In this document: in pieces, positions 1,388-17,061 of the stretch | Layout: each line of letters opens with the position of its first letter | Position numbering within the stretch: position 1 is the first letter of the stretch | Assembly (NCBI GenBank): GCA_000165345.1 | Contig: CM000435.1 | Span: 192,001 to 256,000 of the forward strand | Direction of reading: 5' to 3' | DNA: 64,000 nucleotides | The notes under the pieces: generated by a model | Seen by the model: only the letters and a program-made list of their open reading frames with translations | Database searches by the model: none | What the model was told of the DNA's origin: nothing | Translations under genes and position numbers: made by a program

Positions 1388-2707
1388 TTGAATTTCATTG
1401 CTTGTAGTTTTATGAGAAACGAGATAAGTAAAGAAAGTAATGAGCCTCACCATGAGGATTCAATGAGCCTTCCTCCTGTACTCCCAATTAAAAAGGGAGA
1501 AGCCTTATCTTTTTACGTAGCTCATAGTTGTGGTAGAGCTAGATATGGAGTATTAAATCTTCCTCATGGAAGAGTGGATACTCCAATATTTATGCCAGTT
1601 GCTACTCATGGATCGATTAAGGGGCTTTCTTCCCTTCAGGTTGAAGAGCTGAATGTACCTATTTTATTGGGAAATGCATACCATTTAGGTAGCAGGCCAG
1701 GAGATGAAATTATTGATAAATTTGGAGGTTTGCATAACTTTATGAGGTGGAACAGGAACATTTTGACTGATAGTGGAGGATTCCAGATGGTTTCTCTTTT
1801 AAAATTTGCTAATATTACAGAAGAAGGAGTCGAATTTAGGCATCCATATACGAATGCAAATTTACTATTCACACCAGAAAAATCTATTCAAGTCCAGAAT
1901 GCAATAGGAGCTGATATAATTATGCAGCTTGACGATGTAATCACTGCCAAATCTACAGATTATCAAAGATTTGATGAAGCAGTTGATAGAACGACACGAT
2001 GGTTGGATCGTTGTATAAAAGCTCACAAAAAACCTGATAAACAAAATTTGTTTGCAATTGTACAAGGAGGAATTTTTAAAGATCTTAGGGAAAGATCTCT
2101 GAAAAGTCTTAAGGAAAGAAATACTCCAGGATACGCAATTGGAGGTCTTTCTGGAGGCGAAAGCAAAGACAGTTTCTGGCAAATAATTGAGTTATGTACC
2201 AGATCTGGTGTTGGACTTCCTGAAAATAAACCAAGATACGTTATGGGAGTTGGATATCCTATTGATATTTTAGTTTGTGTAGCACTAGGAGCTGATATGT
2301 TTGATTGTGTATATCCCTGTAGAACTGCAAGGTTTGGAACAGCTATGGTTCACAATGGACTACTCAAACTAAAATTAAGTAAATACAAGGATGACGCAAG
2401 ACCAATCGATTCCAGATGTAAATGCTACTGCTGTAAGCATTACTCCAGAGCTGCACTATATAGAATTGTCCTTAAAGATTCGCTTGCATGTCAACTTATG
2501 ACGATCCATAATATATCTTTCATGATGGAGTTTTGCAATGATATGAGAAACGCAATTAAAAACCAAACTTTTGGAGAATACTGCAAGTCATTTGTGAGAA
2601 ATTACTATTCGTCTACTGAATTAGATCACTTAAGTGATTTAGAAAAAAAAGAAGGTATCCCAAAATGGGTTGTTGATGCTTTTAAATATATTGATATTCA
2701 TTTATAA
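1388..2707 (+). CDS. QTRT1: Queuine tRNA-ribosyltransferase catalytic subunit (eukaryotic tRNA-guanine transglycosylase). The real start may be the internal Met at 1412 or 1463.
   Basis: LNLPHGRVDTPIFMPVATHGSIKG, LLGNAYHLGSRPG, TDSGGFQMVSL and the C-terminal zinc site CKCYCCKHYSRAALYRIV (CxCxxC..H) are all TGT hallmarks. Confidence 0.88.
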   Translation: MNFIACSFMRNEISKESNEPHHEDSMSLPPVLPIKKGEALSFYVAHSCGRARYGVLNLPHGRVDTPIFMPVATHGSIKGLSSLQVEELNVPILLGNAYHLGSRPGDEIIDKFGGLHNFMRWNRNILTDSGGFQMVSLLKFANITEEGVEFRHPYTNANLLFTPEKSIQVQNAIGADIIMQLDDVITAKSTDYQRFDEAVDRTTRWLDRCIKAHKKPDKQNLFAIVQGGIFKDLRERSLKSLKERNTPGYAIGGLSGGESKDSFWQIIELCTRSGVGLPENKPRYVMGVGYPIDILVCVALGADMFDCVYPCRTARFGTAMVHNGLLKLKLSKYKDDARPIDSRCKCYCCKHYSRAALYRIVLKDSLACQLMTIHNISFMMEFCNDMRNAIKNQTFGEYCKSFVRNYYSSTELDHLSDLEKKEGIPKWVVDAFKYIDIHL

Positions 2708-2909
2708 ATTGCAATAAGCATCAGTATTACACTATTTATAAAGGTATTGGCTATCTAATATTTAACGTATATTACTAATTCTAGAAAAGGTTTACAGGGT
2801 CATTCATTAACATTAGTTTTTCTTTTTTTTTTAGCTCGATTATTATTTCCACATGAAATATGTATTATTTTTCTATTACCGGTGTTTATTTTTAATTATT
2901 TAAAAAATG

Positions 2910-2994
2910 TTTGCATGTATTAAATGTGCATGCAACTGCTATTTAAACCCAATTGCATGTGGACAATTAATAATTAAGAAAAAGTTGCATGCAG
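2910..2994. promoter_or_regulatory. Cluster of four TGCATG(CA) motifs about 270-350 bp upstream of the Patched-like gene
   Basis: TTGCATGTATTAAATGTGCATGCAAC (2910-2935), TTGCATGTGG (2953-2962), TTGCATGCAG (2985-2994). The GCATGC palindrome is the dominant GC-containing motif in the spacers of this window. Confidence 0.4.
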
Positions 2995-3259
2995 TAAAAT
3001 TTGACAGAAAGTAGTTTAAATAAAAAAAAATTTTTTTCTGTTATGAAAGAATAAAAAAAATAGTTTTTAAGCTATAAAGTATCAAAGAATAGAGTCATAA
3101 TTGGCTTGGATTATTTATGAATAGGAGAAATTAAATAATCTGACTATATAATAAAAATTAAGAAAATCATTAATAGGTTAAACAAATTTTCACATGAAAT
3201 AATAGGGGATAACGTCATTTTATGTAAAGGAAATCTCTTGAAAAAGAAAGGTTTCTCAA

Positions 3260-6200
3260 ATGAGTGAATCAAATGTATCAAATAATACAGAGAATAAAGG
3301 GAAAAACAATGGAGATGACGTTGGGGTATATGTTCATTCTGAGTCAGATTTGACTAGCTTTGCGAGAGAAAATATAAACTTTGCAACTAAAGATGATGAA
3401 AATAAGCCAGAGAGAATGATAAAGGGTTCTCAGAGTAGCTTTCCAACAATAAAGTCGACAATAGAAAAGATTAAAATGCCAGCTAAGCTACTCCAAAAGT
3501 GTGTGGACGTAATATTCCATGGGAGATGGAAAATGATAACTTTGAACTACTTTGAAAGATTTTTCATGGTTTATTCGAGATTTGTATTCAGGCATTCAAT
3601 GGCAGTAATTATCGCAGTGACATTAATTTGCCTTTTTTTGGGTATAGGTAAGTTTATTTTATAAGAACTAAAAGCCTGAAGAAGGCTTGTACGCATTGTT
3701 AGAATATATAATTCGTTTCTAGGCCATTTATTTAGACATCCTGTCGAGGATTCTGAAAGACAATTTGCTCTCCCTCATAGCAAGGCAAAAAATGACGAGA
3801 ATTTTTATAATTTAGCATTTCCAGGTGCAAGAACAAGACATGAGATTGTGATTTTCAAGGCGATTAGTGGTGGTTCAGTTATTACGAATGAAAACTTGCA
3901 TATAATGAAAAGCTTTCATGAGGGCTTAATGAATTTAACTTTTACACTTGATGAAACTGAGGCAAAGGAGCTATTAGAAGCATATAATGAGCTTAGAAAT
4001 AGTACATCTTCAAAGCAAAGAGCCACAGAAGAGAATCACTTAAACCAAACCACTTCAGAAGAGGGAGGTCACTTAAGAAGCATTCTAGAAAGTCCAATAG
4101 TAAAAATGAATAGTATTGAAGAATATGAATTAATAAAAAGGAAGCTGATCCCTGGTCAGAAGTTTGGCTTTGGAGCAAAAAGGAACTTTAATAAGAATAA
4201 ATTTGGGCAAAATAATCATAGTCAGAACAGCACTCGTAATGATTCCAATATTCAGTCTAAAAAGAAAGAGAATGAAAAACACTATTTAGATACAGAAATG
4301 TTTACAGGAAATGATTATATTGCACCACAAATTGTTGAAGAAAAGGATTCATCAGGAAAAATTGTGAAAAAGTATAAATTTAATTTCAGTCATGTTTGTG
4401 CGAGAGTTCAAGGTGGCTCATGTAGACGTCCATCTGGGATTTTATGGATGTATAAAGATACAAAAGATTTTGGGAAACCCATCCCAGCTCCTTATGTAAT
4501 TAATACACTAACTTATCAATCTTTTAGAACTGATATGTGGCTTTCACCAATAGGAATGGAACATGAAAAGAAGACTGATCATGTAAAGGCATCTAGGGCA
4601 GCAATTCTTGAATACCAACTTTCAGATCAAGATAAAATGAAGAGGTTTTCATTCAGATGGGAAGAACAATTCATGAAATACTGTGAAAAAGTGCAGAGAA
4701 GGTTACAAAAAGGTGATTATGGGGATGATTTAAGAGATGGGTCCAATTTCTTAGCATTTACTAATGAATTAGATGTTCATTCGCAAGCACATACAACTAA
4801 TAACAACATTAAGAAAAAGAATGACACTGAACATATCCAAAATGATGATTTGGTTTTTGATGAATTGGATGATATTTATATTGCAGAAACCGAAAGGGTT
4901 CATATAAAAAATAATACAGGGCATGAACAATTATCATATACAATTCCAAATATTAAGAGAATAAATAAAGGAGCAACCAAATACTTATTTAAAGGAGATA
5001 CTGCTAATGCTCCACTATCAATATTTTATAATGCAAGAAGAGCTCTTAGTGATGAACTCACAGAACAGACTTATATACATACTCCAAAAGATTTTGCAAT
5101 CATTGGCTCTCTTGTTGTTATACTACTCATTTATGGTTGGACTGTTGGATATGGAAGCAATATATATACTTCAAGAGCAACTAGTGGAGTTTGTGGTGCT
5201 ATTGCAGCCTTATTGGCATTTATTGGAGGAGCTGGATTATGTTATTTAGCAGGCTTGGAACATACATCAACTGCATCAGCTGCTCCATTTCTAGTACTTG
5301 GAGTTGGTATGGACGATTCTTTTGTTGTAATTAACTCATTTAATATGACGTATCCATTAAAGAATGCTGAAGATAGGATTGTTTCAGCTGTCAGAGACTG
5401 TGGTCTATCTATTTCTCTTACAACTTTGACTAACTTATTATCATTTGCAATTGGGACATCTGCAGGATATTTAGCAATCAAGAATTTCTGTATTTTAACT
5501 TTTGTTGGATTATTATTTGGTTACATAACTTGTCTAACGATATTATTGGGAGTGCTTTGTATAGATGCACGGCTTGAAGAGAAAAAGATGATAAAAATTT
5601 TTGGAAGAGAATTCTTTGCAAATCGTAAACATCCAGATCCACTTGTTCCTGAAATGGAAATACCAGTTGAGAAGTTCTCCACTGTAGCTCTAATTGGATT
5701 TTTAGTTTCTCAATATAAACATTTTAATGATTCAAAGGTGAATACTCAAGAATTAATTTTGATAGAAAATGAATCTTCTATTGGAAAGAATATTGATCCT
5801 AATGAAATTCAGGTATCAAAAATTACAAATAATTTTGAGGATGCATCAATAAACAGCCCAATAGACGAGGAAGAGATTATTGTTAAAGCTGGCCAAATTA
5901 ATGTTTTATATAAGAGTAAGGCTTCTGTAAGTGAAGAGCAAACACAAAATACTACTTACATGAATAATTCAGGGTCCCCAAGTACCTTGTTTAGTAATAA
6001 AACATCATCAATTCAGTCAAAAGAAAATATATTTGAAGCCCAAAGAAAATTACATTCAAATTTAGGATCTGAGAAATACTTGGAAAATGATCACAAAGAC
6101 TTATCAAATAATTTTAATTCTTCTAATCAAATTGATAAATTGAAGGATAAACTAATAAGCATTTCCAAATCAGAAAAAAGTAATTCAAGATCTAGTAAAA

Positions 6201-7900
6201 AGAAGAATGAACATAATAAAGCTAAACATGAAAACCAATCTCAAGGAAAAAAATTGATCCCAAATTTCGCTGATATTCTAGATACGAGATTACTTAATTA
6301 CAAAAGAGGAAGATCTAATGCTCATAGTTCTATTCAACTCACTGAGAATATTGAAGTTTCTGATTATACTGCGGAACAACTTAAAAAAGATAAAGGAATG
6401 GTTTCAAAAAGCCAAACTGAAAGTTCGTTGTTAAGTTCTCCAAATTCGGGAGGGTCATATTTCTCAGAAAGCAAACTTCAACTAACTAATTCCGACTTTA
6501 CATCCTCAAGTTCTTCATCAGAATCTGAAACCAGCTCATCAGGGTCTGAATTAACCGTTTTCCCAATGGAAGCAAAACAAAATATTGGTCGAAAAAGTCG
6601 AAGATTTGTAATTAAATATTATGCGACTTTTCTTACAATGACTTCAACAAGAGTGATTATACTCATCCTAGCATCGATCTTCCTAGCTGTCTCAATCTAT
6701 TCTTCAATCAAGCTTAAAATGGGACTTGACTTAAAGGTTTTAGCTCCTCCAAGTTCCCAGGTTTACAAGTTTTATGTTAACCATGAGCAATTATTCAATA
6801 AGTACGGAGATGTCACATATATGATGTTTCAGGCTACACAAAAGTTAGGAGACAATAATAATAGTAATAACAATAACTGGTGGGAAGAATCATTTATTCG
6901 TGATTACAAAGAATTACAAACAAAGATACATGATTCTTGGTTTACCGAAATTAAACTTGATGGTATGGTTGCTTTCTATGATTCTTTATTAATTAAAGGA
7001 CTCCCAAAGAATTCTGTCGAATATTCAAAGATGCTTAAAGCATTTATTAGTTCCCCATACAATCGTCACTTTGAAGATGATTTTGTTTTTAATCAAAATA
7101 CTGGAGAATTAGAGGCTTGGAGGTCTGTATTGATTCCAATTTATCTTCCGGATACCTCTGTTAGAGGAAAGTATATGACTGATATAAGAAAGATTATGGG
7201 ATCTGTACCAGGAGTGAAAAATCCAATTGCTTACAGCCCCTTGTTTATATTTTATGAAAGTGACGTATCCATACTTCCTCAAACATTATATAATATGGGA
7301 TGTGCTTTAATTGCAGTTTTACTTGTAAGTTTCATATTTATTAATTATAAAAACAATTTATCTCATTAAATTTTAATCTTCAGGCTTCTTTAATATTAAT
7401 GCCAAGTATATCTTCAGTTATTATTGTTATTATTATTCTATGTATGGTGGATGTATGTATTATTGGAATGATGGCACAATGGGGGCTTCAGTTAAACATG
7501 CTTACAATGGTTAATTTGATTATGTCTATTGGTATTTCTGTTGATTATTCTACCCATATTTGCCATTGTTTTGCTCATTGTTCTGGTAAAGATAGAAATA
7601 CAAGAGTTATTGAGACTTTGGGTAAGTTTTAAGAAATGCAAATTATTACTATAAATATTACTAAATCTCTTTTTAACTTAAGGATTAATGGGAATTCCAA
7701 TTTTCCACGGTGCAATGTCAACTCAATTTGCAGTAACTGTATTGGCATTTTCAGATTCATATGTACTTCAGACATTCTACAAAATGATGACTTTGGTTGT
7801 TTGTATTGGAATTTGTTATGGAGCTATTATTCTTCCAGTTATTCTTACAGTTTTTGGTCCAATGGATGTTATTAAATACACTAAAGCTGAACATAAATAA
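3260..7900 (+). CDS. Patched/NPC1/Dispatched-like RND-superfamily membrane protein with a sterol-sensing domain. Four exons: join(3260..3647, 3723..7324, 7384..7621, 7683..7900), 1481 aa.
   Basis: Four ORF-track pieces (3260..3664, 3848..7369, 7399..7632, 7688..7900) join in frame across three GTAAGT...AG introns. Exon 1 gives N-terminal TM1 (MAVIIAVTLICLFLGIG). Exon 2 holds the sterol-sensing-domain helices (IIGSLVVILLIYGW..., GAIAALLAFIGGAGL, FLVLGVGMDDSFVV with the RND GxxxD motif, LTNLLSFAIGTSAG, LTFVGLLFGYITCL), then a long loop and TM7 (VIILILASIFLAVSIY). Exons 3-4 give the second TM bundle (IIVIIILCMVDVCIIGMMAQWGLQLNMLTMVNLIMSIGISVDYSTHI; GIPIFHGAMSTQFAVTVLAF; LVVCIGICYGAIILPVILTVFGP). 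Splice phases are consistent and the total is divisible by 3. Confidence 0.8.
3648..3722 (+). other. Intron 1 of the Patched-like gene (75 nt, GTAAGTTT...TTTCTAG)
   Basis: The GTAAGT donor follows ...LFLGIG. The exon-1 ORF otherwise hits a stop 17 nt later. The acceptor TTCTAG restores the frame into the 1173-aa ORF with no intervening stop. Confidence 0.75.
7325..7383 (+). other. Intron 2 of the Patched-like gene (59 nt, GTAAGTTTC...AATCTTCAG)
   Basis: The donor lies right after ...IAVLL. The downstream exon continues ASLILMPSISS... (second TM bundle) in frame. Confidence 0.75.
7622..7682 (+). other. Intron 3 of the Patched-like gene (61 nt, GTAAGTTTTAAG...AACTTAAG)
   Basis: The donor follows ...ETLG. 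The acceptor joins to GLMGIPIFHGAMSTQFAV... in phase 1. Confidence 0.7.
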
Positions 7901-8494
7901 TTTATTACAACAGAAATGTTCAATATTAGACACCTTTGGGGAGGCTTCAATTTTCATTTATTTTTTTTTTATTATTATTCACCAAGTAAGATTGAATAAT
8001 AATTTTGATTCATTCAAATATTTGAACAAAAGTATAGCAATTAAAGATTAATCACTTTATTTTTTAAGACTAATATTGATTTCCTGGCCTATTCTGATAT
8101 CTATATCTTATACCGTCTAATGATTAATATACAATGGGTATTTAAGTAATTGTAAACGAACAAGTAAAACTCATTTTTTAATAGTAAATCAAAAGATATA
8201 ATCTATAACATGCTAATTTAAACATTAAGTAATATTTTTTAAATTACATGCAATAAAATAATATTTTTCAAAGCTTATTCCAGAAAATTTAATTATATTA
8301 AATTTCCAAGATAATTATTATGGATAAAAAAAAAACATAATTGTCAAAGATAGTACCAAAGCTAGTATAAAGGTGATAAATTGAATGGAATAATGCACAT
8401 TTGTTTAACAAAAACTTCGATCTGACAATATCTACATATTCAGATTTAAAAATGATTTTTTAACTATATACCGGTAATTAATTCAAATGCATCA

Positions 8495-8730: not shown

Positions 8731-11700
8731 ATGTCTACAGAGTTACAGAAACAGATAAATTTTCAGTTAAGAAACAATGAATTAACTTTCTTATCTCAGA
8801 GGGCTCTGAAAGTGAACAGAAACAAAAAAGAAAGAATTTCTTTTCTTTTTGATACTAGTAATACAGAATTTCATTCAAGAAAGGGACTTAAACCTGATAA
8901 TAGGATCCCAATTTATGAAGATCTTGGAAGATTAAGATACCTTGCTGAACAGGGACTCATGGAGTTAGAGTCTCTAAATCCAAGAATTTCTCATGAATCT
9001 TTTAATGAATTTTTTGAGAATACTGATGTTCCTTCAATTCAAATGTTGACAAAACAAGAAGCTGGTGAGATGTTAAGAAAGTTGGAAAGATTAATAGATT
9101 TTTTGGTACCTTATTTTCTATTGGAATCTGCAAAAATTTGCATAGAGTATTTAATTCAGGCTTATGATATCAATGTTTTATTGGGTGAATATCTTTTTTA
9201 CTCTTTTCTGCCCTACCACGATATGGCAGAATTTTGTCAATTAATTAGAACTTTGGATATACCAGAAAACAGTGAGATCAAAGGTTTGGTTGACTCAATT
9301 AAGACAACAAGAACCGTAATCACTTCTAGAAGTTATCTTTCTTCAATTTTAATCAGAAATCCAGCTTTGTTTAAGAATATTGTCATATTTTGGGAGAAAA
9401 GATTAGAAACATTTCAATTAACTAAGAATATACCATTAACTAACTTAATAACTTGGTTAGTTATTGAAATTATTGAGGACTTATCCAGATCTAAAGATTT
9501 AAAGAATCTTCATATTTTTCTTGAAAGTATTATTGAAATTATTATTTTTGGTACTTGTTTAAAAGGATCTCAATATGAAGAGTTAAGATCTACAGGATAT
9601 TGTATACTATATAAATTATCAACACCTCTTCTTTCTCTCTCAAATGAAACTCAGGTTAGAATTATTGATGAACTTTTCAAATCTATTTCAAGAAATCAAA
9701 CATATTCACCAAATTACCTTTCTGAGACAATTCTATTAATGAATCATATCTTAACTCAATTTGGAACTTTGACTCATTATGAATATTTAGATCATGAAAT
9801 ATCTGAATTTATTATAGAGAATCAAGCTATTTTTATCAGTGCTTTTAAACAATTATCAGAATGGGAAAGTGATTTTCTACAAATCCTTGCTTTGATTACT
9901 AAATCGATCATCAATTTTGGGGTTAATCAAGATCAAAGTTTTTCAAGACCTTGTCTTAACTTTTTTGAAAGTATCTTAAATTGTTTAGGGAATTCATCTT
10001 CCCTATTATTAATGGATGAAAGACAATCTAAAATGATTAAAGTTATTATTCTAAGCTTAATAGACGTTTACTCTCAAGATCAAATTCAAAATCCATTTTT
10101 TGGAAATATTATTAAAATTCTTCATACAAATTATCCATCTGAACTACTTTCTGCTCTCAGCTTTTCTTTAAATGTTTCTTCATCTCCACAATCACAATTA
10201 TTTGAACTTAAAGAAAAGGCTCAAATGTTTGTGGATATTGTTCTTAAAGAAGAAGAAGAAGCAAAAAGTGATTCTGGTATATTACAATCTAAAGAAGGAG
10301 AAAGTTCACGTATGTTCTTAACTTTACTAAATAGTCAAGACAAATCAGTATTAAATTCTTGTTTGGATATGATTATCAATTTGATAAAGAAATCTTCAAA
10401 GAATCCCAGTGAAATAACTCAATTTGAGAAGAGAGTATTTGAATTATCATTAAGACATTTCCTCGGTTCCTTTAATGATGAAAGTGGTAAACAAAATAAC
10501 TTTGGCGAGGAATATGCTTTAAAAATTTTAAGCTTACCTCAAACAATCGAAATTTCAAAATTTTTAGATCTTGAAGATATCCCGTCTCAAGATCAAGGCC
10601 ATCGTGATCTCCAAAAACAATGGAGAGTTAATTTGATTTTTAAGAGTTTTCTATTTTATTTTAAATCCAAAATAACATCAGGATATTCTACTCTTATAAA
10701 ATATTTTTCAAAAGAAATTTCATCCGAATTAAACTTGAAGGATCATCAAAATGGTAACTTTAATATTGAAGCTATGATTATGGAATCTACATTTTCTCAT
10801 ATATTTGGTCAAAATTTTGAGACAAATCTTATGGATTTATTTAAAAGTTTTTCTATTATTCTTGAAAATGATACTTTTGAGCTGAAGAATCAAATGAATA
10901 ATTTGGATGTAATTCTAATGGAGAATTCAGATATCTTTATTCCTCTATTCACCTTAATTTCACATGAAAATCTTTCATTTTCTCAAGATCTCAAAAAATC
11001 TTCAACTAGATTACTTGCTTTAATGTATAAGAATGATCAAATCAATACCTATTTTAAGCAAATCCTATTTAAATCAAGCGTAAACTGTTTGGAAATTTCT
11101 TTAATCTTATTATCACTGAAGAAGCTTAATTTAGATCTTAGATCTAGTTATCTCCTACCTAACCACTCATTTTCAAAGTTTGGAATTTATTTAAATAATG
11201 ATCAAGAAATTATCAGTCTATTGGAAACTTTATATTACAAATTTTACTATTATATCAGTTCCGCAATAAGACCACTCAAGAATGATAAAAAAATATCCAA
11301 TCAATTAGTTGGTATTTATATTTTAATTATATTCAGATCTACTTTACAAATTGTCTCATCTAGACGAGATCATTTCATTTTATATTATAAATTATTGAAT
11401 ATTTCCTTGGTGGATACTTTAGATATTGGAATTCTTTCAACAAATCATTTGGGATTACCATTGTTTCAAATGATTAATTCTTGTTTTGATTCTAATAATG
11501 AAAAAAAGAATAAAAAGATCTCAATTTTGGTTATCAATCTTACAAGGAACTTATTCAACATTTTGTCTCAAAGTGGGTCAGCATCATTTAATTTAGATTA
11601 TCTTAATAATGATCAATCATATTCAATATTTTATGGAAAGAATGTATATTTAGATACATTAATAAGTCATAGTTATTCTTTTCTGGAAATAATTACTTCA

Positions 11701-14700
11701 AAGTTACCAGTTCTACAAGATTCAAAGAATAATACATTTTCTGTCTCAAATTTACTTGAGATCTTATATAGTATTTTATCTTATGCAATTATTCCAGCTT
11801 TCTTAGATCAAAAATCTATATCTATAAAAATGGCATCTTTTAGGCTTTGTAAAGCAATACAAGATAAATTAAATCCAATTAATATCGAAAAAGTATTTGG
11901 GAATTCAAATTTGAAGTTTTCTGATATTTTATTAAGCTATAATAATTCTAATGATACCGGTACCGATTTTAATTATACAAATAATCATTTAAGATCATGT
12001 TATTTAAATAAATTTGGTCCAAAAATTCATCAAGTTTTAGAGGTTATTGATTCATTACTAAATCATCAATCTGAAGTTATTGTTGAAAATAATTTTCAAA
12101 ATCTTTTTGAAATTATTTTTAAAGATAATAATAAATCTATTAATATACCCGGTACCTTATTAATGTTAAATTTGGTAATGACCTTTGAAATGGCTTTTAC
12201 TAGTAAATTTATTCAAAAAATTGATTTAAATTATACACTTTTATCAGATTATGTGAGAAAGAACTTTATTTTTGGCAGTATTGATTCAAATTATCATGAG
12301 ATCTTGATAAATATTTCTAAAAGTTTCTTAATTAAAAATGAATATATCGATCATCATATTATTATTGGATTATCATTCTTAAAACAAGGGATCGATAATT
12401 TGGTTGATTATATTGATAAACAAGAACAAATTGATACAATAAAAGAACTAATACTCGAATATTTGAATGTTATTCAGAGATTTGAAAAAGAATTCCAATA
12501 TTTTGTTTTGATCAAAGAAAGTAATTTGGCTAAACAAGTTTTCTGTGAAATATTATTAACATTTTTAAATGAGAAGATTACCCAATATCTGAAAAGTGAT
12601 CATGAATTTGCTTCTTTTGTCGTTGGAATAATTTCTCAAATTATACAATATTCTCCAGAAAGCATTAAAAAAGTATCTTTATCTCAATATATTCAAAGTA
12701 AATCATTGGAAAGATTGGATCTTTTGATTTGTAGTTTATTGGAATATTGTTTAAAAGATGAACATTCTAAAAGATCAAATTCTAATTTCAAATTAAATAA
12801 TGATTCAGATACCGTATTTAATGAGCAAATAATCTTGGAATGGATTTATTGTGATTTGAATCTAGTTAATATTGAAATCTTGAATGATCAAAAAGAAGTT
12901 GAATATACATTTAATAAAGATCTTATTTGTCAAACTTTAAGATATTTAGAAATTAATAGAAATAGATTAAAAAGAAATCATCATGAAGAAATGGATCTTG
13001 ATATTCTATTTAAGACTGAGATTTACTTGATTAGAATATTAGATTTTGGAATTAAACTGAGATATACTCAATTTAAAGATTTAGAACCAATTTTGAATTA
13101 CTTTGAAATTACTGAAGAAACTAATAATAGAGTTGAAATCTCCAAGTTTATTTTAAATCCTATGATCATATCTTCAATTACAAGTCTTTTTTCAAGTATT
13201 AAAATAAAATCAAAGAATAAAGACTCAATGGATCACTCAAAATCATACTTTAAAATTTGTAAGATCTTATTTTCTATTTATATGAATTTGGCAAAAAATA
13301 CACATGGTGGTATCGATCAAAAGAATTATACAATAAAATCAACATTTTATTCTTTGAATCTATTTGTTAACCATAGCTTACAAGATTGTATATATTTTGA
13401 TCATTCTAGTAAAGAAAGAATGAAAGGTATCTTATTCAAGATCTTAATAAGTGAACAAATTAAAGAGATTGTTGAGACAAATAAATTTAATCAAATACAT
13501 GAGATACTTGATTTTATGGAGAAACTTCATAATGATGTTATTTATTGCCAAAACGTACATAGATTTAAAAAGAGTCAAGGAATTTTCATGATCATTAGAT
13601 ATTATCTAAATATGAACCAAGACTCTCAATCTGAAGATCTTGAACAATTAATTAAACATCTTTTGAAGAATCAATTATTTGATACAAGAACAAATGTTTA
13701 TAAGGATTTACTTCTTAATGTTCAAAATGAAATGGAAATTTTAATGAAATTTGAAGATCATGATCATAATAATCATGGATTTGAAACAAGAAAAGTTATT
13801 CTTGAGAATCTTATATTAATGACAAAAACTATCATTTATTTCTTAAATAAAACTTTATTAACTACAGAAATAAAATCAAATGAATCTCAAGATTTACTTG
13901 AATTATTTGATAGCTTAATTTTAATTAAAACTTTAATGAATAAAAAAATCTTAAAAAAACTCGGTACCGTACTAAAAAATAACGAGACAGATCTTGAAAT
14001 GAATGAAAAACTTAAATCCAGAATTGACAAATTAGAAAAAGAGTATTTAATCAATTCAATAGGATTGGATAAAGATTTTCAACATTATGATAATGAGGAA
14101 TATGTTATTAAGACTATTCAAAAAGATATTGATCAATTAATTCAAAGTATTATTGAAGATGATAGTATGAAGAAATATCTTATTGTTCATTGGGATTTAT
14201 CTAAAGATTCAGGTTTTGAAGTTTTAAAGAATTTAAGAAAAAGATTCTATTCTTTATTAATAAGTAATAAAATTGATTCTTTGGGTATTATTTTAAAAGA
14301 ATCTTTAGATAAGAAGCTTAAAATTTCTATAGATTTTAGATCTTCTTCAATTAATAATCATGATCAAGTAAAACAAGAATCTAATGTATTTAATACAATA
14401 CAATATCTTTTAGATATTATGATTTCTAGTAAAGAATTTAAAAATTCATTCAAATATAGATCAAAAACCCAAAAAGATCTTCATGTATTAGATGAGAGTA
14501 TGGATACTGGTACTGAATCAGAAAGTGAAGAAAATGAAAAAGAAGATTTGAGATCAAAGTTGAAGTTATGGATCAAAAATTGGTATATTATAGATTTAAT
14601 TCTCAAAGTTGTTAAAACACAAGGAGAAGAAAGACAAAAAGATCAATTTAATAAATTAATCTTTTCAAAAATTATGAGTTTCTATAATAGTCAAGAAAAT

Positions 14701-17061
14701 ATGCATGATGGATATGGAATAGTTTTCAAGATCCCATTAATACAGAATTTCTTATTAGAGAAGATTTCAAAATTAGAAAAGACTGATACTATAACTATCT
14801 TAAATGAAATACAAATTATTCTTGAAGATACAATACGTACAATCAAACTTTTAAATAGTAATTCAAATATTTTTGAATATATTCATATTCTAGAGGATAG
14901 AAAAGTCAAATCTATATTAATTTCTATGATAACTTCAAGTTACAAAGATTTAGATAATGATGAAAATGATGAATTTAAAACAAGAAAAGCTTTATTACTA
15001 CCTTATTTAGCTTTGTTAAATACATTACTAAGTTCAAATATTGGTTCAGTAATGATGAATGCAGAAACAAGAAAGGAGATCTTAATAAATGTATTATTAC
15101 ATGATAGTATGGTACCGTATTATGATCTTAATATATTAACAAATCTATTAAAGAGTGAAAGAACGAGAAAATCTAAATTTAATACAAGAAAAGAGAAATA
15201 TAAACAAGATAAATCTTTAGAAAATCATATTGAAGATTTAACAATGTTAGATAAAAATAAAAGTAATAGTAATCACAAATTGAATTTTTATTTGGAAGAA
15301 TTGGACAAAAATATTAACTCTTCATCTGGAATATTAATAGAAGGAGGTACTTTGGAGAATTATTTAGTAAGAATTCTCTTAATTTATTGTAATTTAACAA
15401 GTTCACCAACATCTCATTCTTATAATGAGGACTTTATTGGAGGATATAGTCAAGTACTTAAAGAGATTTCTTCAGAATTATTTTCAAAATTAAATTTAGA
15501 AGAAGGTACCGGTATTAAAAAGATATTAAAAGATCATGGAATAAATATATATTATTCAAAATTGACCAATTTAGTTTTAATTGTTTCATTTTCATTAAAT
15601 TTCATGGATGCTGGTAAATTGATTACAGAAAAGTCATTTATTGAAAGATTTTCTCAATTTTATCTTTTATTGGTGAATTTATTAATAATAAACTTCTCAA
15701 AATTACATTCAATTAAGGAGACAGAATTGAAAATGTTAGAAGAAGATTCTACAGATTCTAAGATTGGAAATAGTTTAGAAAAGTTATCAGGTAGAAAAAG
15801 AACAGAGGAGGAGAAAGATGATAATTATAATAGGAGAAATAATATGAAAAGTAATAATAATAATAGAGGAAAAGAGGAATCTTTGAATGGTTTTATTTCA
15901 AATATATTTGGAGTAGATGTATTATTATCCCATGGTTGTGTGAATCCAAAATGGTTTGATTTAGATATTAAAGATCTTAAGAAATTATCAAACTTAAAAT
16001 CGAATAATACATTTACAAATTTGAAGATCTGGAAATTAGAATCAAGTATTTCAACTTTAATATCAGTATTTGTATTAAAACTGAATGCAAAAAGATTAAG
16101 AGAATTTATATTATTAATAAAAAGATTGATTCATAGAAATGGTGAGAGTTTTCTTTCAAAAGTAAGTTCAATGACAAAGAAATCTGATGATTCAAAGACT
16201 GCAAGTAATTCTGATAAGAAGGCAATAAAAGATCTATATGAAGAGATTTCTTCTTCAGAAAGTTCAACATTAATTAAAGATATTTATTCTTGCAGAATTT
16301 GGATTTTAATTTTATTAGCAGTATTTGAATCAACAGGTGAATATGGTATATATTGTCTTATAGATGACGTGGCATTGGATGTGAAATCAATTTGTGATTT
16401 AACTCAAATGAATGCTTTAACATGCGTTCAGAATATTACAATATCTCAATATAGAAATATTCATAGTCCAAGTAAAAGATCACCAAATCATCAACAGATT
16501 GCTAATTTGAGTCATTTAGATAATGAGCTTGGTTGGTACTGGTACCATTTAGGTATATATAATTTAATATTAATAAAGATAATTTATTTAAATTTATCAG
16601 TACAAAATGAAGAATCAAAAGATGTACCAAATTCAATAGAAGATTATTTAGTAAATCCAATAGTTACAAATTTGGATATGTTTGCTTTATTTGAGCCAGG
16701 CTCAACTAAAAATTTAACAGGCTGTGGAAAACAATGGGATCTTATTTTGAGTGATATTTGGATTCATTCAATAAGATGTTTTAGAAGTAATGATTTAATA
16801 TTGGCTGGAATTATTAGATTATTGGTGAATAAAATAAGAAATGGTAATGATCAGGTTAGAATGTTCTCAGCAGAAGTTTTACTTAAGCTTTGGAAGGATG
16901 AAATATGTTCGATTACAATTTTGTCTCATTTATCAGATATTCTTCCTACAATTAAGGAACTTCTAAGTGACCATTCTGAGGAGATGATTAATATTACTAA
17001 ATCAATAGTCAAAAAGATTGAAGAAAGAACAGGAGAAGATATTTCCAAACAACTTTGCTAG
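8731..17061 (+). CDS. HEATR1: HEAT-repeat protein HEATR1 / UTP10 (U3 snoRNP t-UTP component, small-subunit processome), 2776 aa
   Basis: The N-terminal U3snoRNP10-like block LVPYFLLESAKICIEYLIQAYDINVLLGEYLFYSFLPYHDMAEFCQLIRTL aligns to human HEATR1 LSPYFLLKPAQKCLEWLIHRFHIHLYNQDSLIACVLPYHETRIFVRVIQLL. The C-terminal BP28CT-like HEAT tail DQVRMFSAEVLLKLW...ILPTIKELLSDHSEEMINITKSIVKKIEERTGEDISKQL matches the HEATR1 tail pattern KVRFAAL...LLPESIPFLAELMEDECEEVEHQCQKTIQQLE..GEPLQ. Confidence 0.75.
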   Translation: MSTELQKQINFQLRNNELTFLSQRALKVNRNKKERISFLFDTSNTEFHSRKGLKPDNRIPIYEDLGRLRYLAEQGLMELESLNPRISHESFNEFFENTDVPSIQMLTKQEAGEMLRKLERLIDFLVPYFLLESAKICIEYLIQAYDINVLLGEYLFYSFLPYHDMAEFCQLIRTLDIPENSEIKGLVDSIKTTRTVITSRSYLSSILIRNPALFKNIVIFWEKRLETFQLTKNIPLTNLITWLVIEIIEDLSRSKDLKNLHIFLESIIEIIIFGTCLKGSQYEELRSTGYCILYKLSTPLLSLSNETQVRIIDELFKSISRNQTYSPNYLSETILLMNHILTQFGTLTHYEYLDHEISEFIIENQAIFISAFKQLSEWESDFLQILALITKSIINFGVNQDQSFSRPCLNFFESILNCLGNSSSLLLMDERQSKMIKVIILSLIDVYSQDQIQNPFFGNIIKILHTNYPSELLSALSFSLNVSSSPQSQLFELKEKAQMFVDIVLKEEEEAKSDSGILQSKEGESSRMFLTLLNSQDKSVLNSCLDMIINLIKKSSKNPSEITQFEKRVFELSLRHFLGSFNDESGKQNNFGEEYALKILSLPQTIEISKFLDLEDIPSQDQGHRDLQKQWRVNLIFKSFLFYFKSKITSGYSTLIKYFSKEISSELNLKDHQNGNFNIEAMIMESTFSHIFGQNFETNLMDLFKSFSIILENDTFELKNQMNNLDVILMENSDIFIPLFTLISHENLSFSQDLKKSSTRLLALMYKNDQINTYFKQILFKSSVNCLEISLILLSLKKLNLDLRSSYLLPNHSFSKFGIYLNNDQEIISLLETLYYKFYYYISSAIRPLKNDKKISNQLVGIYILIIFRSTLQIVSSRRDHFILYYKLLNISLVDTLDIGILSTNHLGLPLFQMINSCFDSNNEKKNKKISILVINLTRNLFNILSQSGSASFNLDYLNNDQSYSIFYGKNVYLDTLISHSYSFLEIITSKLPVLQDSKNNTFSVSNLLEILYSILSYAIIPAFLDQKSISIKMASFRLCKAIQDKLNPINIEKVFGNSNLKFSDILLSYNNSNDTGTDFNYTNNHLRSCYLNKFGPKIHQVLEVIDSLLNHQSEVIVENNFQNLFEIIFKDNNKSINIPGTLLMLNLVMTFEMAFTSKFIQKIDLNYTLLSDYVRKNFIFGSIDSNYHEILINISKSFLIKNEYIDHHIIIGLSFLKQGIDNLVDYIDKQEQIDTIKELILEYLNVIQRFEKEFQYFVLIKESNLAKQVFCEILLTFLNEKITQYLKSDHEFASFVVGIISQIIQYSPESIKKVSLSQYIQSKSLERLDLLICSLLEYCLKDEHSKRSNSNFKLNNDSDTVFNEQIILEWIYCDLNLVNIEILNDQKEVEYTFNKDLICQTLRYLEINRNRLKRNHHEEMDLDILFKTEIYLIRILDFGIKLRYTQFKDLEPILNYFEITEETNNRVEISKFILNPMIISSITSLFSSIKIKSKNKDSMDHSKSYFKICKILFSIYMNLAKNTHGGIDQKNYTIKSTFYSLNLFVNHSLQDCIYFDHSSKERMKGILFKILISEQIKEIVETNKFNQIHEILDFMEKLHNDVIYCQNVHRFKKSQGIFMIIRYYLNMNQDSQSEDLEQLIKHLLKNQLFDTRTNVYKDLLLNVQNEMEILMKFEDHDHNNHGFETRKVILENLILMTKTIIYFLNKTLLTTEIKSNESQDLLELFDSLILIKTLMNKKILKKLGTVLKNNETDLEMNEKLKSRIDKLEKEYLINSIGLDKDFQHYDNEEYVIKTIQKDIDQLIQSIIEDDSMKKYLIVHWDLSKDSGFEVLKNLRKRFYSLLISNKIDSLGIILKESLDKKLKISIDFRSSSINNHDQVKQESNVFNTIQYLLDIMISSKEFKNSFKYRSKTQKDLHVLDESMDTGTESESEENEKEDLRSKLKLWIKNWYIIDLILKVVKTQGEERQKDQFNKLIFSKIMSFYNSQENMHDGYGIVFKIPLIQNFLLEKISKLEKTDTITILNEIQIILEDTIRTIKLLNSNSNIFEYIHILEDRKVKSILISMITSSYKDLDNDENDEFKTRKALLLPYLALLNTLLSSNIGSVMMNAETRKEILINVLLHDSMVPYYDLNILTNLLKSERTRKSKFNTRKEKYKQDKSLENHIEDLTMLDKNKSNSNHKLNFYLEELDKNINSSSGILIEGGTLENYLVRILLIYCNLTSSPTSHSYNEDFIGGYSQVLKEISSELFSKLNLEEGTGIKKILKDHGINIYYSKLTNLVLIVSFSLNFMDAGKLITEKSFIERFSQFYLLLVNLLIINFSKLHSIKETELKMLEEDSTDSKIGNSLEKLSGRKRTEEEKDDNYNRRNNMKSNNNNRGKEESLNGFISNIFGVDVLLSHGCVNPKWFDLDIKDLKKLSNLKSNNTFTNLKIWKLESSISTLISVFVLKLNAKRLREFILLIKRLIHRNGESFLSKVSSMTKKSDDSKTASNSDKKAIKDLYEEISSSESSTLIKDIYSCRIWILILLAVFESTGEYGIYCLIDDVALDVKSICDLTQMNALTCVQNITISQYRNIHSPSKRSPNHQQIANLSHLDNELGWYWYHLGIYNLILIKIIYLNLSVQNEESKDVPNSIEDYLVNPIVTNLDMFALFEPGSTKNLTGCGKQWDLILSDIWIHSIRCFRSNDLILAGIIRLLVNKIRNGNDQVRMFSAEVLLKLWKDEICSITILSHLSDILPTIKELLSDHSEEMINITKSIVKKIEERTGEDISKQLC

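What the first reader, a model, noticed from the sequence alone, without database searches (positions are those of the whole stretch)
3260..7900. Four-exon Patched/NPC1-like sterol-sensing-domain transporter (1481 aa) with three short introns
Four separate ORF-track pieces assemble into one RND-superfamily protein with 12 or more TM helices and a sterol-sensing domain, through three 59-75 nt GTAAGT..AG introns with consistent phases. It has no cysteine-rich NPC1 N-terminal domain. The long Asn/Ser-rich second loop makes it closer to Patched/Dispatched-type proteins. A sterol/lipid-handling RND permease is biologically interesting in a parasite that scavenges host lipids. Three introns in one gene is unusual for this intron-poor genome.
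Basis: partly seen in the sequence, partly recalled or inferred. Interest (0 to 1): 0.6.

Follow-up and report, generated by a model that had tools for sequence, protein, structure and literature searches.

The report
Cryptosporidium four-exon sterol-sensing RND transporter gene
This is a real, correctly reconstructed four-exon gene of Cryptosporidium parvum for a 1481-residue membrane transporter of the Patched/NPC1 (sterol-sensing, RND) superfamily, but the same protein is already in public databases, so it is a sound yet ordinary finding.

Summary
Exons 3260-3647, 3723-7324, 7384-7621 and 7683-7900 join through three GTAAGT...AG introns (75, 59 and 61 nt) into one 1481-aa reading frame. That exact protein is deposited for C. 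parvum (QOY40398.1, WRK33251.1). All three introns sit at the same codon positions in seven Cryptosporidium species, vary in length (47-378 nt) and diverge fast, while every exon is under purifying selection.

The protein has a sterol-sensing domain (Pfam E 4e-29) and a Patched-family match. It has no NPC1 N-terminal domain. The TM4 and TM10 acidic/histidine proton-relay residues are conserved. The best solved relative by sequence and fold is Plasmodium falciparum NCR1, far ahead of NPC1 and PTCH1, which score about equally, and Dispatched.

The Ser/Asn/Lys-rich stretch is the disordered linker between TM6 and TM7, cytosolic by homology. It is not evidence of Patched/Dispatched affinity. Four exons is above average but within the normal range for this genome.

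One refinement: a tree and balanced profiles place the protein in a sister clade (with Rhytidocystis and a Neospora/Toxoplasma/Cyclospora SSD protein), not in the PfNCR1/TgNCR1 clade. Its function in Cryptosporidium is untested.

The parts
3260..3647 (+). Exon 1 (residues 1-129 plus the first base of codon 130): ~100-aa cytosolic N-tail, juxtamembrane segment and TM1 (about 3575-3646)
   Evidence: It is the first ATG of the ORF and is conserved as MSESNV in 5 species. dN/dS is 0.105 for the tail and 0.055 for TM1. The hydropathy peak is 2.56 at residues 106-137. Profile positions 83-208 align to PfNCR1 residues 6-128 across the junction, i-E 0.0027. The old Iowa II annotation called it a separate 134-aa hypothetical protein.
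3648..3722 (+). Intron 1, 75 nt, GTAAGT...TAG, after phase-1 exon end
   Evidence: It is at the same codon position in 7 species, with lengths of 47-226 nt. Identity to C. ubiquitum is 62%, against 84-87% in the flanking exon sequence. If retained, an in-frame stop is met at nt 3662.
3723..7324 (+). Exon 2 (residues 130-1330): extracytosolic domain 1 (3725-5083), TM2-TM6 with the sterol-sensing domain (5084-5581; Pfam SSD 5168-5602), TM6-TM7 linker (5597-6571), TM7 (6641-6712), extracytosolic domain 2 (6713-7243), TM8 (7244-7321)
   Evidence: Pfam PF12349 scores 4e-29 and PF02460 scores 1.8e-23. The AF2 model has pLDDT 70-90 in ECD1, TM2-6, TM7, ECD2 and TM8. Foldseek's top hit is PfNCR1 at 8e-25.
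5312..5317 (+). TM4 Asp660-Asp661 (GVGMDD motif), putative proton-relay residues
   Evidence: They align to PfNCR1 D570/D571. They are invariant in 7 Cryptosporidium species. The PfNCR1 relay is described in PMC11654669.
5717..6559 (+).
   Evidence: Composition is S 19.6%, K 10.7%, N 10.7%. There are almost no invariant columns. pLDDT is below 50. dN/dS is 0.15, so it is coding but weakly constrained.
7325..7383 (+). Intron 2, 59 nt, GTAAGT...CAG, phase 0
   Evidence: It is conserved in position in 7 species at 57-378 nt. An in-frame stop is met at nt 7367 if it is retained. The alignment to PfNCR1 is gapless across the junction.
7384..7621 (+). Exon 3 (residues 1331-1409 plus one base): TM9-TM10 and the following cytosolic segment. 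Includes Asp1384...His1388 at 7543-7557
   Evidence: It is 100% identical at protein level in C. ubiquitum and C. canis and 87% in C. andersoni. dN is 0 against C. ubiquitum. D1384 and H1388 align to PfNCR1 D1383 and H1387.
7622..7682 (+). Intron 3, 61 nt, GTAAGT...AAG, phase 1
   Evidence: It is conserved in position in 7 species at 57-163 nt. An in-frame stop is met at nt 7630 if it is retained.
7683..7900 (+). Exon 4 (residues 1410-1481): TM11-TM12, short C-tail, TAA stop at 7898-7900
   Evidence: It aligns without gaps to PfNCR1 up to residue 1469 and to NPC1 and PTCH1 TM11-12. dN/dS is 0.02.

Best explanation
The window is Cryptosporidium parvum chromosome 7. Bases 3260-7900 hold one protein-coding gene of four exons.

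The product is a 1481-aa polytopic membrane protein of the eukaryotic sterol-sensing branch of the RND superfamily (Patched/NPC1/NCR1). Its layout is: a cytosolic N-tail, TM1, a large extracytosolic domain, TM2-6 (the sterol-sensing domain), a long disordered cytosolic linker, TM7, a second extracytosolic domain, then TM8-12. There is no NPC1-type N-terminal cholesterol-binding domain.

Within apicomplexans it falls in a clade with a Rhytidocystis protein and the ~1550-aa 'SSD' proteins of Neospora, Toxoplasma and Cyclospora. That clade is sister or paralogous to the clade holding PfNCR1 and TgNCR1.

The likely mechanism is inferred from the family, not shown here. A cation (proton) gradient is sensed by the conserved TM4 Asp-Asp and TM10 Asp/His residues and drives conformational cycling. 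This cycling moves a sterol or another lipid between the outer leaflet at the SSD pocket and a hydrophobic tunnel through the two extracytosolic domains. The protein would thereby set the lipid composition of a parasite membrane in an organism that must scavenge cholesterol.
For: Gene model:
- The spliced CDS is a single ORF.
- The exact product is deposited as QOY40398.1 (cpbgf_700850) and WRK33251.1 (CPATCC_0006590). The paper describing the re-annotated C. parvum IOWA assembly (CpIA) states its introns are 100% supported by RNA-seq (PMC8744675). I take CPATCC_0006590 to belong to that annotation because of its locus-tag prefix.
- The three introns are positionally conserved in 7 species, length-variable and fast-diverging.
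- My spliced models equal the deposited proteins in 5 species.
- All exons have dN/dS of 0.15 or less.

Family:
- Pfam SSD scores 101.9 bits and Patched 83.5 bits.
- The profile against PDB gives PfNCR1 at 6e-76, covering positions 563-1470.
- Foldseek with the exon-2 model gives PfNCR1 at 8e-25, TM-score 0.59.
- Y600, D660, D661, D1353, S1378, S1382, D1384 and H1388 match the PfNCR1 proton-relay residues and are invariant in the genus.

Clade:
- Exhaustive phmmer ranks Rhytidocystis P0024 (1e-112) and Neospora P0025 (4e-68) above TgNCR1 (1e-56) and the Plasmodium NCR1 representative (5e-27).
- In the all-against-all BLAST, the Rhytidocystis paralogues score 603 against 306.
- The NJ tree gives clade A 95% and clade B 99% bootstrap.
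- Identity is highest to clade A in the TM, ECD1 and ECD2 partitions.
- Balanced 3-sequence profiles give 780-796 bits for A against 618-650 for B.

Function of relatives:
- PfNCR1 exports cholesterol (PMC11654669), sits on the parasite plasma membrane and is required for its normal lipid composition (PMC6424564).
- TgNCR1 controls lipid homeostasis (PMC3234224).
Against: There is no experimental datum on this protein in Cryptosporidium in the searched literature.

Substrate, direction of transport and membrane are all extrapolated from a paralogous clade.

Only 4 of the 13 mappable residues of the PfNCR1 MMV009108 pocket, and few SSD-cavity residues, are identical. The ligand-contacting surfaces have therefore diverged.

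The clade assignment rests on neighbour-joining and profile scores, not maximum likelihood. An unbalanced profile test gave the opposite ranking. Cryptosporidium sits on a long branch.

The 12-TM count therefore rests on gapless alignment to PfNCR1 plus hydropathy.
Confidence: 0.85

Rival explanations
1. It is the direct (1:1) orthologue of PfNCR1/TgNCR1. On this view it is a plasma-membrane cholesterol exporter with the same role as in Plasmodium, and the separate-clade placement is a long-branch or method artefact.
For: PfNCR1 is by far the best solved-structure match by sequence and by fold. The architecture is the same: no N-terminal domain and a long TM6-7 insert. The proton-relay residues are conserved. 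An unbalanced profile test scored clade B higher. Lige et al. 2011 list only one C. parvum NPC1-related gene, with a cgd7 tag.
Against: PfNCR1 is the only apicomplexan structure in PDB, so 'best PDB hit' says nothing about orthology. Rhytidocystis, Neospora and Toxoplasma each carry members of both clades, and the Cryptosporidium protein is consistently nearer the clade A copies. The Plasmodium NCR1 representative ranks only about 65th in the exhaustive search.
Confidence: 0.2
2. There are two separate genes, as in the original C. parvum Iowa II annotation: a 134-aa hypothetical protein (3260-3664) and a 5'-partial 'patched family protein' starting at an internal Met.
For: Deposited records exist for both pieces (XP_628273.1, 134 aa; XP_001388370.1, 1280 aa 'partial'; KAL5367394.1, 1291 aa). 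The 134-aa ORF is closed by a stop at 3662-3664 if it is not spliced.
Against: Without exon 1 the protein lacks TM1, which the RND fold needs. The exon 1 to exon 2 junction is continuous in alignment with PfNCR1 and NPC1L1. The GTAAGT...AG intron is conserved at the same codon in 7 species. Newer annotations of C. parvum, C. hominis, C. meleagridis, C. ubiquitum, C. ryanae and C. xiaoi all join the pieces. Exon 1 is under purifying selection.
Confidence: 0.02
3. It is a Patched- or Dispatched-type protein in the functional sense, meaning a morphogen receptor or exporter.
For: It has no NPC1 N-terminal domain, 12 rather than 13 TM segments and a long middle loop, so the architecture is 'patched-like'. 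A 2026 preprint uses that phrase for PfNCR1. PTCH1 is a strong hit, at 8e-33 by profile and 8e-11 by fold.
Against: NPC1 scores the same as or better than PTCH1. Dispatched is 27 or more orders of magnitude weaker. The middle loop is disordered, poorly conserved and shared with PfNCR1. From general knowledge, not tested here, no Hedgehog pathway is known in apicomplexans.
Confidence: 0.02
4. It is a non-transporting sterol sensor or regulator that uses its SSD as SCAP or HMG-CoA reductase do.
For: SCAP SSDs are detectable hits, at 1e-4 to 6e-4.
Against: It has the full two-half RND architecture with both extracytosolic domains and the conserved TM4/TM10 charge-relay residues that sensors lack. 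It also matches transporters far better than SCAP.
Confidence: 0.04

Closest known systems
Plasmodium falciparum NCR1 (PfNCR1, PDB 8v0g/8v12/8v1g)
   Same: It is the best solved relative by sequence (6e-76) and by fold (8e-25, TM-score 0.59). Both have 12 TM segments and two extracytosolic domains after TM1 and TM7. Both lack the NPC1 N-terminal domain and have a long disordered TM6-TM7 insert. The TM4 DD and TM10 D...H relay is conserved.
   Different: Identity is only about 35% in the TM blocks. The two fall in different clades in the tree. Only 4 of 13 mappable inhibitor-pocket residues are identical. The Plasmodium-specific HLH targeting domain is reported to be absent from homologous proteins of other apicomplexans (PMC13042079). 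PfNCR1's function and localisation are experimentally established, whereas nothing is known for this protein.
Clade A apicomplexan SSD proteins: Rhytidocystis pertsovi P0024 (1648 aa), Neospora caninum XP_003879733.1 'sterol sensing 5-transmembrane protein, related' (1564 aa), Toxoplasma gondii 1535-aa 'SSD of SREBP cleavage-activation domain-containing protein', Cyclospora OEH76295.1
   Same: These are the nearest non-Cryptosporidium relatives in an exhaustive search (1e-112 to 1e-55). Their size is similar (about 1500-1650 aa). TM identity is 47-52%. NJ clade support is 95%.
   Different: I found no functional study of any member, so the clade gives an evolutionary address but no function. 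The Toxoplasma model P0026 looks partly mis-predicted, with a long branch and low scores.
Toxoplasma gondii NCR1 (TgNCR1, TGME49_290870)
   Same: It is an apicomplexan SSD-RND protein without the NPC1 N-terminal domain (phmmer 1e-56). Lige et al. 2011 already listed a C. parvum cgd7 gene among its relatives.
   Different: It is shorter (1178 aa) and belongs to clade B with PfNCR1. It localises to the inner membrane complex and is dispensable (PMC3234224, PMC6424564).
Human NPC1 / NPC1L1 and yeast NCR1
   Same: They share the SSD and the TM8-12 block (5e-36 to 4e-26) and the TM10 acidic residue followed by His (SVEFCSH against SVDYSTH).
   Different: They have an extra N-terminal TM segment and the cysteine-rich cholesterol-binding N-terminal domain (PF16414). 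That domain is absent here, and residues 1-100 hold only one Cys.
Patched (PTCH1) and Dispatched (DISP1)
   Same: Both have a 12-TM architecture without the NPC1 N-terminal domain. PTCH1 also has a TM4 GVGVDD motif.
   Different: PTCH1 is no closer than NPC1. DISP1 is a marginal hit, at 4e-6 by profile and 9e-4 by fold.

Membership tests
Eukaryotic SSD-containing RND proteins (Pfam Patched PF02460 / Sterol-sensing PF12349) | Significant match to the Patched and SSD profiles above the curated cut-offs | tested here: met
   PF12349 scores 101.9 bits (cut-off 22.3) over residues 612-756. PF02460 scores 83.5 bits (cut-off 23).
Eukaryotic SSD-containing RND proteins (Pfam Patched PF02460 / Sterol-sensing PF12349) | Two pseudo-symmetric halves, each with one TM segment, a large extracytosolic domain and five TM segments (12 TM in all) | tested here: met
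   Hydropathy finds TM1, TM2-4, TM6, TM7, TM8-10 and TM12. The AF2 model of the exon-2 product shows ECD1, five helices for TM2-6, TM7, ECD2 and TM8 at pLDDT 70-90. TM8-12 align without gaps to PfNCR1 residues 1302-1469. Caveat: TM9-12 were not modelled together with the rest.
Eukaryotic SSD-containing RND proteins (Pfam Patched PF02460 / Sterol-sensing PF12349) | Charged relay residues in TM4 (GxxxDD) and TM10 (D/E...H) | tested here: met
   D660/D661 (GVGMDD) and D1384/H1388 (SVDYSTH) align to PfNCR1 D570/D571/D1383/H1387. They are invariant in 7 species.
Apicomplexan NCR1 orthogroup (PfNCR1 / TgNCR1) | Clusters with PfNCR1 and TgNCR1 to the exclusion of other apicomplexan SSD-RND paralogues | tested here: not met
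   In the NJ tree (814 columns, 100 bootstraps) Cryptosporidium falls in clade A (95%), while PfNCR1-like P0088 and TgNCR1 P0028 fall in clade B (99%). Balanced profiles give A 780-796 bits against B 618-650. Pairwise scores and per-partition identities agree. No ML tree was made, so moderate uncertainty remains.
Apicomplexan NCR1 orthogroup (PfNCR1 / TgNCR1) | Cholesterol export activity and localisation at the parasite plasma membrane | not testable with these tools
   This needs tagging, knock-down and lipid assays in Cryptosporidium. No such work was found.
NPC1 / NPC1L1 proper | Cysteine-rich N-terminal cholesterol-binding domain (NPC1_N, PF16414) followed by an extra TM segment (13 TM) | tested here: not met
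   There is no PF16414 hit at E of 1 or below. Residues 1-100 hold one Cys and are K/S/N/E-rich. Only one hydrophobic segment precedes ECD1.
Dispatched | Closer in sequence or fold to DISP than to other SSD-RND proteins | tested here: not met
   DISP1 scores 4e-6 by profile and 9e-4 by fold. PfNCR1 scores 6e-76 and 8e-25, NPC1 5e-36 and PTCH1 8e-33.
Patched (Hedgehog receptor) | Closer to PTCH than to NPC1-type proteins, and Hedgehog ligand binding | tested here: not met
   Over TM8-12, NPC1 scores 2.7e-29 against PTCH1 at 2.6e-19. By profile, NPC1 scores 5e-36 against PTCH1 at 8e-33. Ligand binding is not testable here.
Spliceosomal introns of Cryptosporidium | GT...AG boundaries, short and AT-rich, position conserved among species while length and sequence drift, and removal restores the frame | tested here: met
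   The sizes of 59-75 nt and GC of 15-29% fit the genome means of 84-99 nt and 22% GC (PMC4637869). Direct transcript evidence is not testable here.

The most novel reading that the evidence does not exclude
Cryptosporidium may have kept only the clade A paralogue of the apicomplexan SSD-RND transporters and lost the true NCR1, while Plasmodium did the reverse. If so, this single protein would carry all Patched/NPC1-type lipid transport at the unusual Cryptosporidium host-parasite interface. Its ligand pocket has diverged, so PfNCR1 inhibitors would not transfer and the protein would need its own drug discovery. Only the clade placement was tested here. The 'only copy' part rests on one 2011 BLAST survey and on seeing no second Cryptosporidium hit among the labelled top hits.
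Probability: 0.35. Interest if true: 0.45.

Novelty: already known. Interest (0 to 1): 0.25.

Why it matters
The gene matters mainly as a possible drug target. Its Plasmodium relative PfNCR1 is a validated antimalarial target, and Cryptosporidium cannot make cholesterol and has few treatment options.

Three points here may be useful to others:
- The four-exon model is confirmed independently of transcript data, by positional conservation of the introns and by selection on every exon.
- The deposited gene models are wrong in the old C. parvum Iowa II annotation, in C. andersoni and in C. canis.
- The protein is probably not the strict orthologue of PfNCR1/TgNCR1, and its inhibitor-pocket residues differ. 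Function and inhibitor sensitivity should therefore not simply be transferred from Plasmodium.

None of this changes the view that the finding itself is an ordinary, already annotated gene.

Tried and rejected
(1) The word-indexed homologue search returned only Cryptosporidium proteins with the full protein and with the 7-species profile. With a clade B/C profile it returned no Cryptosporidium at all, not even the known gene. It could therefore not show whether a second paralogue exists. The exhaustive search was used instead.

Only the contiguous exon-2 product could be folded.

(3) A first profile test with unequal clade sizes, including the apparently faulty Toxoplasma model P0026, ranked clade B above clade A. 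I rejected it as confounded after balanced 3-sequence profiles reversed the ranking.

(4) A fourth GTAAGT at 5927 inside exon 2 was considered as a possible extra intron and rejected. The frame stays open, it lies in the variable linker, and the site is polymorphic: Val865 in the window, Gly in KAL5367394.1.

(5) Full-text searches for cgd7_840, cgd7_850, CPATCC_0006590 and cpbgf_700850 found nothing. The equation cpbgf_700850 = cgd7_850 is only my guess from the numbering.

(6) Rfam and tandem-repeat scans of the locus were negative. There are no minus-strand ORFs longer than 79 aa under the gene.

(7) A phosphoproteome paper held no searchable supplements, and Ehrenman et al. 2013 is not held.

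Full report
**Organism and locus**

The window is AT-rich, 26-39% GC around the finding. The assembled protein is identical over its whole length to C. parvum entries QOY40398.1 (cpbgf_700850) and WRK33251.1 (CPATCC_0006590). The window is therefore Cryptosporidium parvum, chromosome 7 by the locus tag. Upstream lies a queuine tRNA-ribosyltransferase gene (1388-2707, PF01702 at 2e-147). Downstream lies a 2776-aa ORF without Pfam hits. The same gene order (helicase, TGT, this gene, large ORF) is found in six other Cryptosporidium species.

**Checking the observation**

Joining 3260-3647, 3723-7324, 7384-7621 and 7683-7900 gives a 4446-nt CDS with one terminal stop and a 1481-aa product.

- The introns are 75, 59 and 61 nt. 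Each starts GTAAGT and ends AG, with 15-29% GC.
- Each intron, if retained, brings an in-frame stop within 5-14 codons.
- GTAAGT occurs four times on the plus strand within 3260-7900. Three of these are the proposed donors. The fourth, at 5927, is in-frame coding sequence in a variable region and is polymorphic between strains.

**Independent evidence for the splicing**

I fetched the syntenic loci of C. meleagridis, ubiquitum, canis, ryanae, xiaoi and andersoni and located the exons by tblastn.

- In all seven species the three gaps lie at the same codon positions and begin with GTAAGT and end with AG. Their lengths range from 47 to 378 nt, mostly not multiples of three.
- Intron identity to C. 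parvum falls to 51-72% in the more distant intestinal species (all but the close relative C. meleagridis) and to 15-34% in C. andersoni. Flanking exon DNA stays at 68-94%.
- My spliced models reproduce the deposited proteins exactly in five species.
- Nei-Gojobori dN/dS against C. ubiquitum is 0.105 for the exon 1 tail, 0.055 for TM1, 0.089 for ECD1, 0.004 for the SSD, 0.152 for the linker, 0.050 for TM7-ECD2-TM8, 0 for exon 3 and 0.02 for exon 4.
- Alignments to PfNCR1 run without gaps across junctions 2 and 3. With the genus profile they also run across junction 1 (profile positions 83-208 against PfNCR1 residues 6-128, i-E 0.0027).
- The paper describing the re-annotated C. parvum IOWA assembly (CpIA) states that its introns are 100% supported by RNA-seq (PMC8744675). 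I take CPATCC_0006590 to belong to that annotation because of its locus-tag prefix. I could not inspect reads myself.

**What the protein is**

- Pfam gives Sterol-sensing PF12349 (4e-29, residues 612-756) and Patched PF02460 (1.8e-23). There is no NPC1 N-terminal domain.
- Against PDB sequences the single protein hits PfNCR1 at 3.6e-61, PTCH1 at 5e-38, NPC1 at 2e-37 and Dispatched at 2e-9.
- The seven-species profile gives PfNCR1 at 6e-76, NPC1 at 5e-36, PTCH1 at 8e-33, NPC1L1 at 3e-27, yeast NCR1 at 4e-26 and DISP1 at 4e-6.
- An AlphaFold2 model of the exon-2 product (17-sequence alignment) has pLDDT 70-90 in ECD1, five SSD helices, TM7, ECD2 and TM8. pLDDT is below 50 in three inserts: full-length residues 226-313, 463-556 and 755-1079.
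- Foldseek ranks the three PfNCR1 structures first (8e-25 to 1e-21, TM-score 0.57-0.59). PTCH1 follows at 8e-11, then yeast NCR1, NPC1L1 and NPC1, and Dispatched at 9e-4.
- Hydropathy plus these alignments give the canonical 1+5/1+5 arrangement of 12 TM segments.

**The 'Asn/Ser-rich second loop'**

Residues 795-1075 are S 19.6%, K 10.7% and N 10.7%. They lie between TM6 and TM7. In PfNCR1 this is the side that holds the juxtamembrane helix JM2 (PMC11654669), which I take to be the cytosolic face. The stretch has almost no invariant columns in the genus and is predicted to be disordered. PfNCR1 has an insert of similar size at the same place. It is therefore not an extracytosolic loop and carries no signal of Patched or Dispatched affinity.

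**Mechanistic residues**

MD simulations of PfNCR1 suggest a proton path through Y510, D570, D571, D1352, S1377, S1381, D1383, H1384 and H1387 (PMC11654669). The aligned residues here are Y600, D660, D661, D1353, S1378, S1382, D1384, Y1385 and H1388. All are invariant in seven species. This supports an ion-gradient-coupled RND cycle.

The ligand-facing residues are less conserved. Few SSD-cavity residues are identical, and only 4 of 13 mappable MMV009108-pocket residues are.

**Orthology**

An exhaustive phmmer search with the exon-2 product found 2353 relatives. The best non-Cryptosporidium hits were named through cluster look-ups:

| Hit | Organism and length | E-value |
|---|---|---|
| P0024 | Rhytidocystis pertsovi, 1648 aa | 1e-112 |
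| P0025 | Neospora 'sterol sensing 5-TM protein', 1564 aa | 4e-68 |
| P0026 | Toxoplasma 1535-aa SSD protein | 6e-61 |
| P0028 | TgNCR1 | 1e-56 |
| P0029 | Cyclospora | 1.5e-55 |

The Plasmodium NCR1 representative (P0088, 92% identical to PfNCR1 fragments) scored only 5e-27.

- In the all-against-all BLAST, PfNCR1-like, TgNCR1 and a second Rhytidocystis protein (P0030) are mutual best hits. Cryptosporidium pairs with P0024 and P0025.
- A neighbour-joining tree (814 trimmed columns, 100 bootstraps) gives clade A at 95%: Cryptosporidium, P0024, P0029 and P0025/26. Clade B, with Plasmodium NCR1, TgNCR1, P0030 and Selenidium among others, is at 99%. Clade C, with the Toxoplasma 1933-aa protein, Chromera and Digyalum, is at 97%.
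- Identity is highest to clade A in each of the TM, ECD1 and ECD2 partitions.
- Balanced three-sequence profiles favour A by more than 100 bits. An unbalanced test had misleadingly favoured B.

I conclude, with moderate confidence, that the gene is a paralogue-clade relative of PfNCR1/TgNCR1 and not their strict orthologue. Lige et al. 2011 list only one C. parvum relative, with a cgd7 tag. No Cryptosporidium sequence was seen among the labelled clade B members.

**Introns in context**

In C. parvum about 10.8% of genes have introns. Those genes have 2-10 exons with a mean of 2.6. Mean intron length is 84-99 nt and mean intron GC is 22% (PMC4637869). A four-exon gene is above average but unremarkable.

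**Known or new**

The exact protein is deposited and named 'SSD domain-containing protein' or 'Patched family protein'. The C. parvum gene was already listed among NPC1-related proteins in 2011. I found no functional study in Cryptosporidium. The finding is therefore already known as a gene and family member. What is added here is comparative confirmation of the model, the paralogy refinement, and the identification of faulty deposited models in other species.

**Verdict**

This is a real feature with a correct gene model and a correct family assignment. The sub-claim about Patched/Dispatched affinity is not supported, and the intron-rarity claim is overstated. Novelty is low and interest is modest, resting on the drug-target angle.

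Noticed in passing
L005 (C. andersoni) 2400-8200; protein P0009: The deposited C. andersoni 'patched family protein' (1364 aa) is a single-exon truncation that lacks TM1 and TM9-12. Applying the conserved splice sites gives a 1666-aa four-exon product. Its introns (226, 378 and 163 nt) are several times longer than in the intestinal species.
   Followed up: partly
L002 (C. canis) 3001-7559; protein P0004: The deposited C. canis model (1471 aa) mis-splices intron 1, which removes TM1. It also reads through introns 2 and 3. In this species those introns are 75 and 57 nt, in frame, stop-free and unusually GC-rich (46-48%). The conserved-site model gives 1459 aa.
   Followed up: partly
window 3260-3664 and 3830-7900: The older C. 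parvum Iowa II and C. hominis TU502 annotations split the gene in two. One piece is a 134-aa 'hypothetical protein' (XP_628273.1, XP_666432.1), which is exon 1 read into intron 1. The other is an N-terminally truncated 'patched family protein' of 1280-1291 aa starting at Met191.
   Followed up: yes
window 5927-5932: A fourth GTAAGT lies inside exon 2 and is coding (Val865-Ser866). The Val is Gly in another C. parvum record (KAL5367394.1), so the site is polymorphic within the species and is not a splice donor.
   Followed up: yes
window 8731-17061 (+): A 2776-aa uninterrupted ORF directly downstream has no Pfam match at E of 0.01 or below. It is syntenic in all six other species (called products of 2594-2810 aa).
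   Followed up: no
P0026 (Toxoplasma gondii 1535-aa SSD protein) versus P0025 (Neospora): The Toxoplasma clade A model scores much lower than its Neospora orthologue against every other family member and sits on a long branch. Alternative deposited versions are 1011, 1425 and 1684 aa. This suggests an unsettled gene model for a protein that seems never to have been studied.
   Followed up: no
window 16162, 17580, 27594, 31401, 36677, 37626 and others: There are 29 GTAAGT sites in the window against 21.6 expected by shuffling (3 of 100 shuffles reach 29). Some may mark further short introns in neighbouring genes.
   Followed up: no
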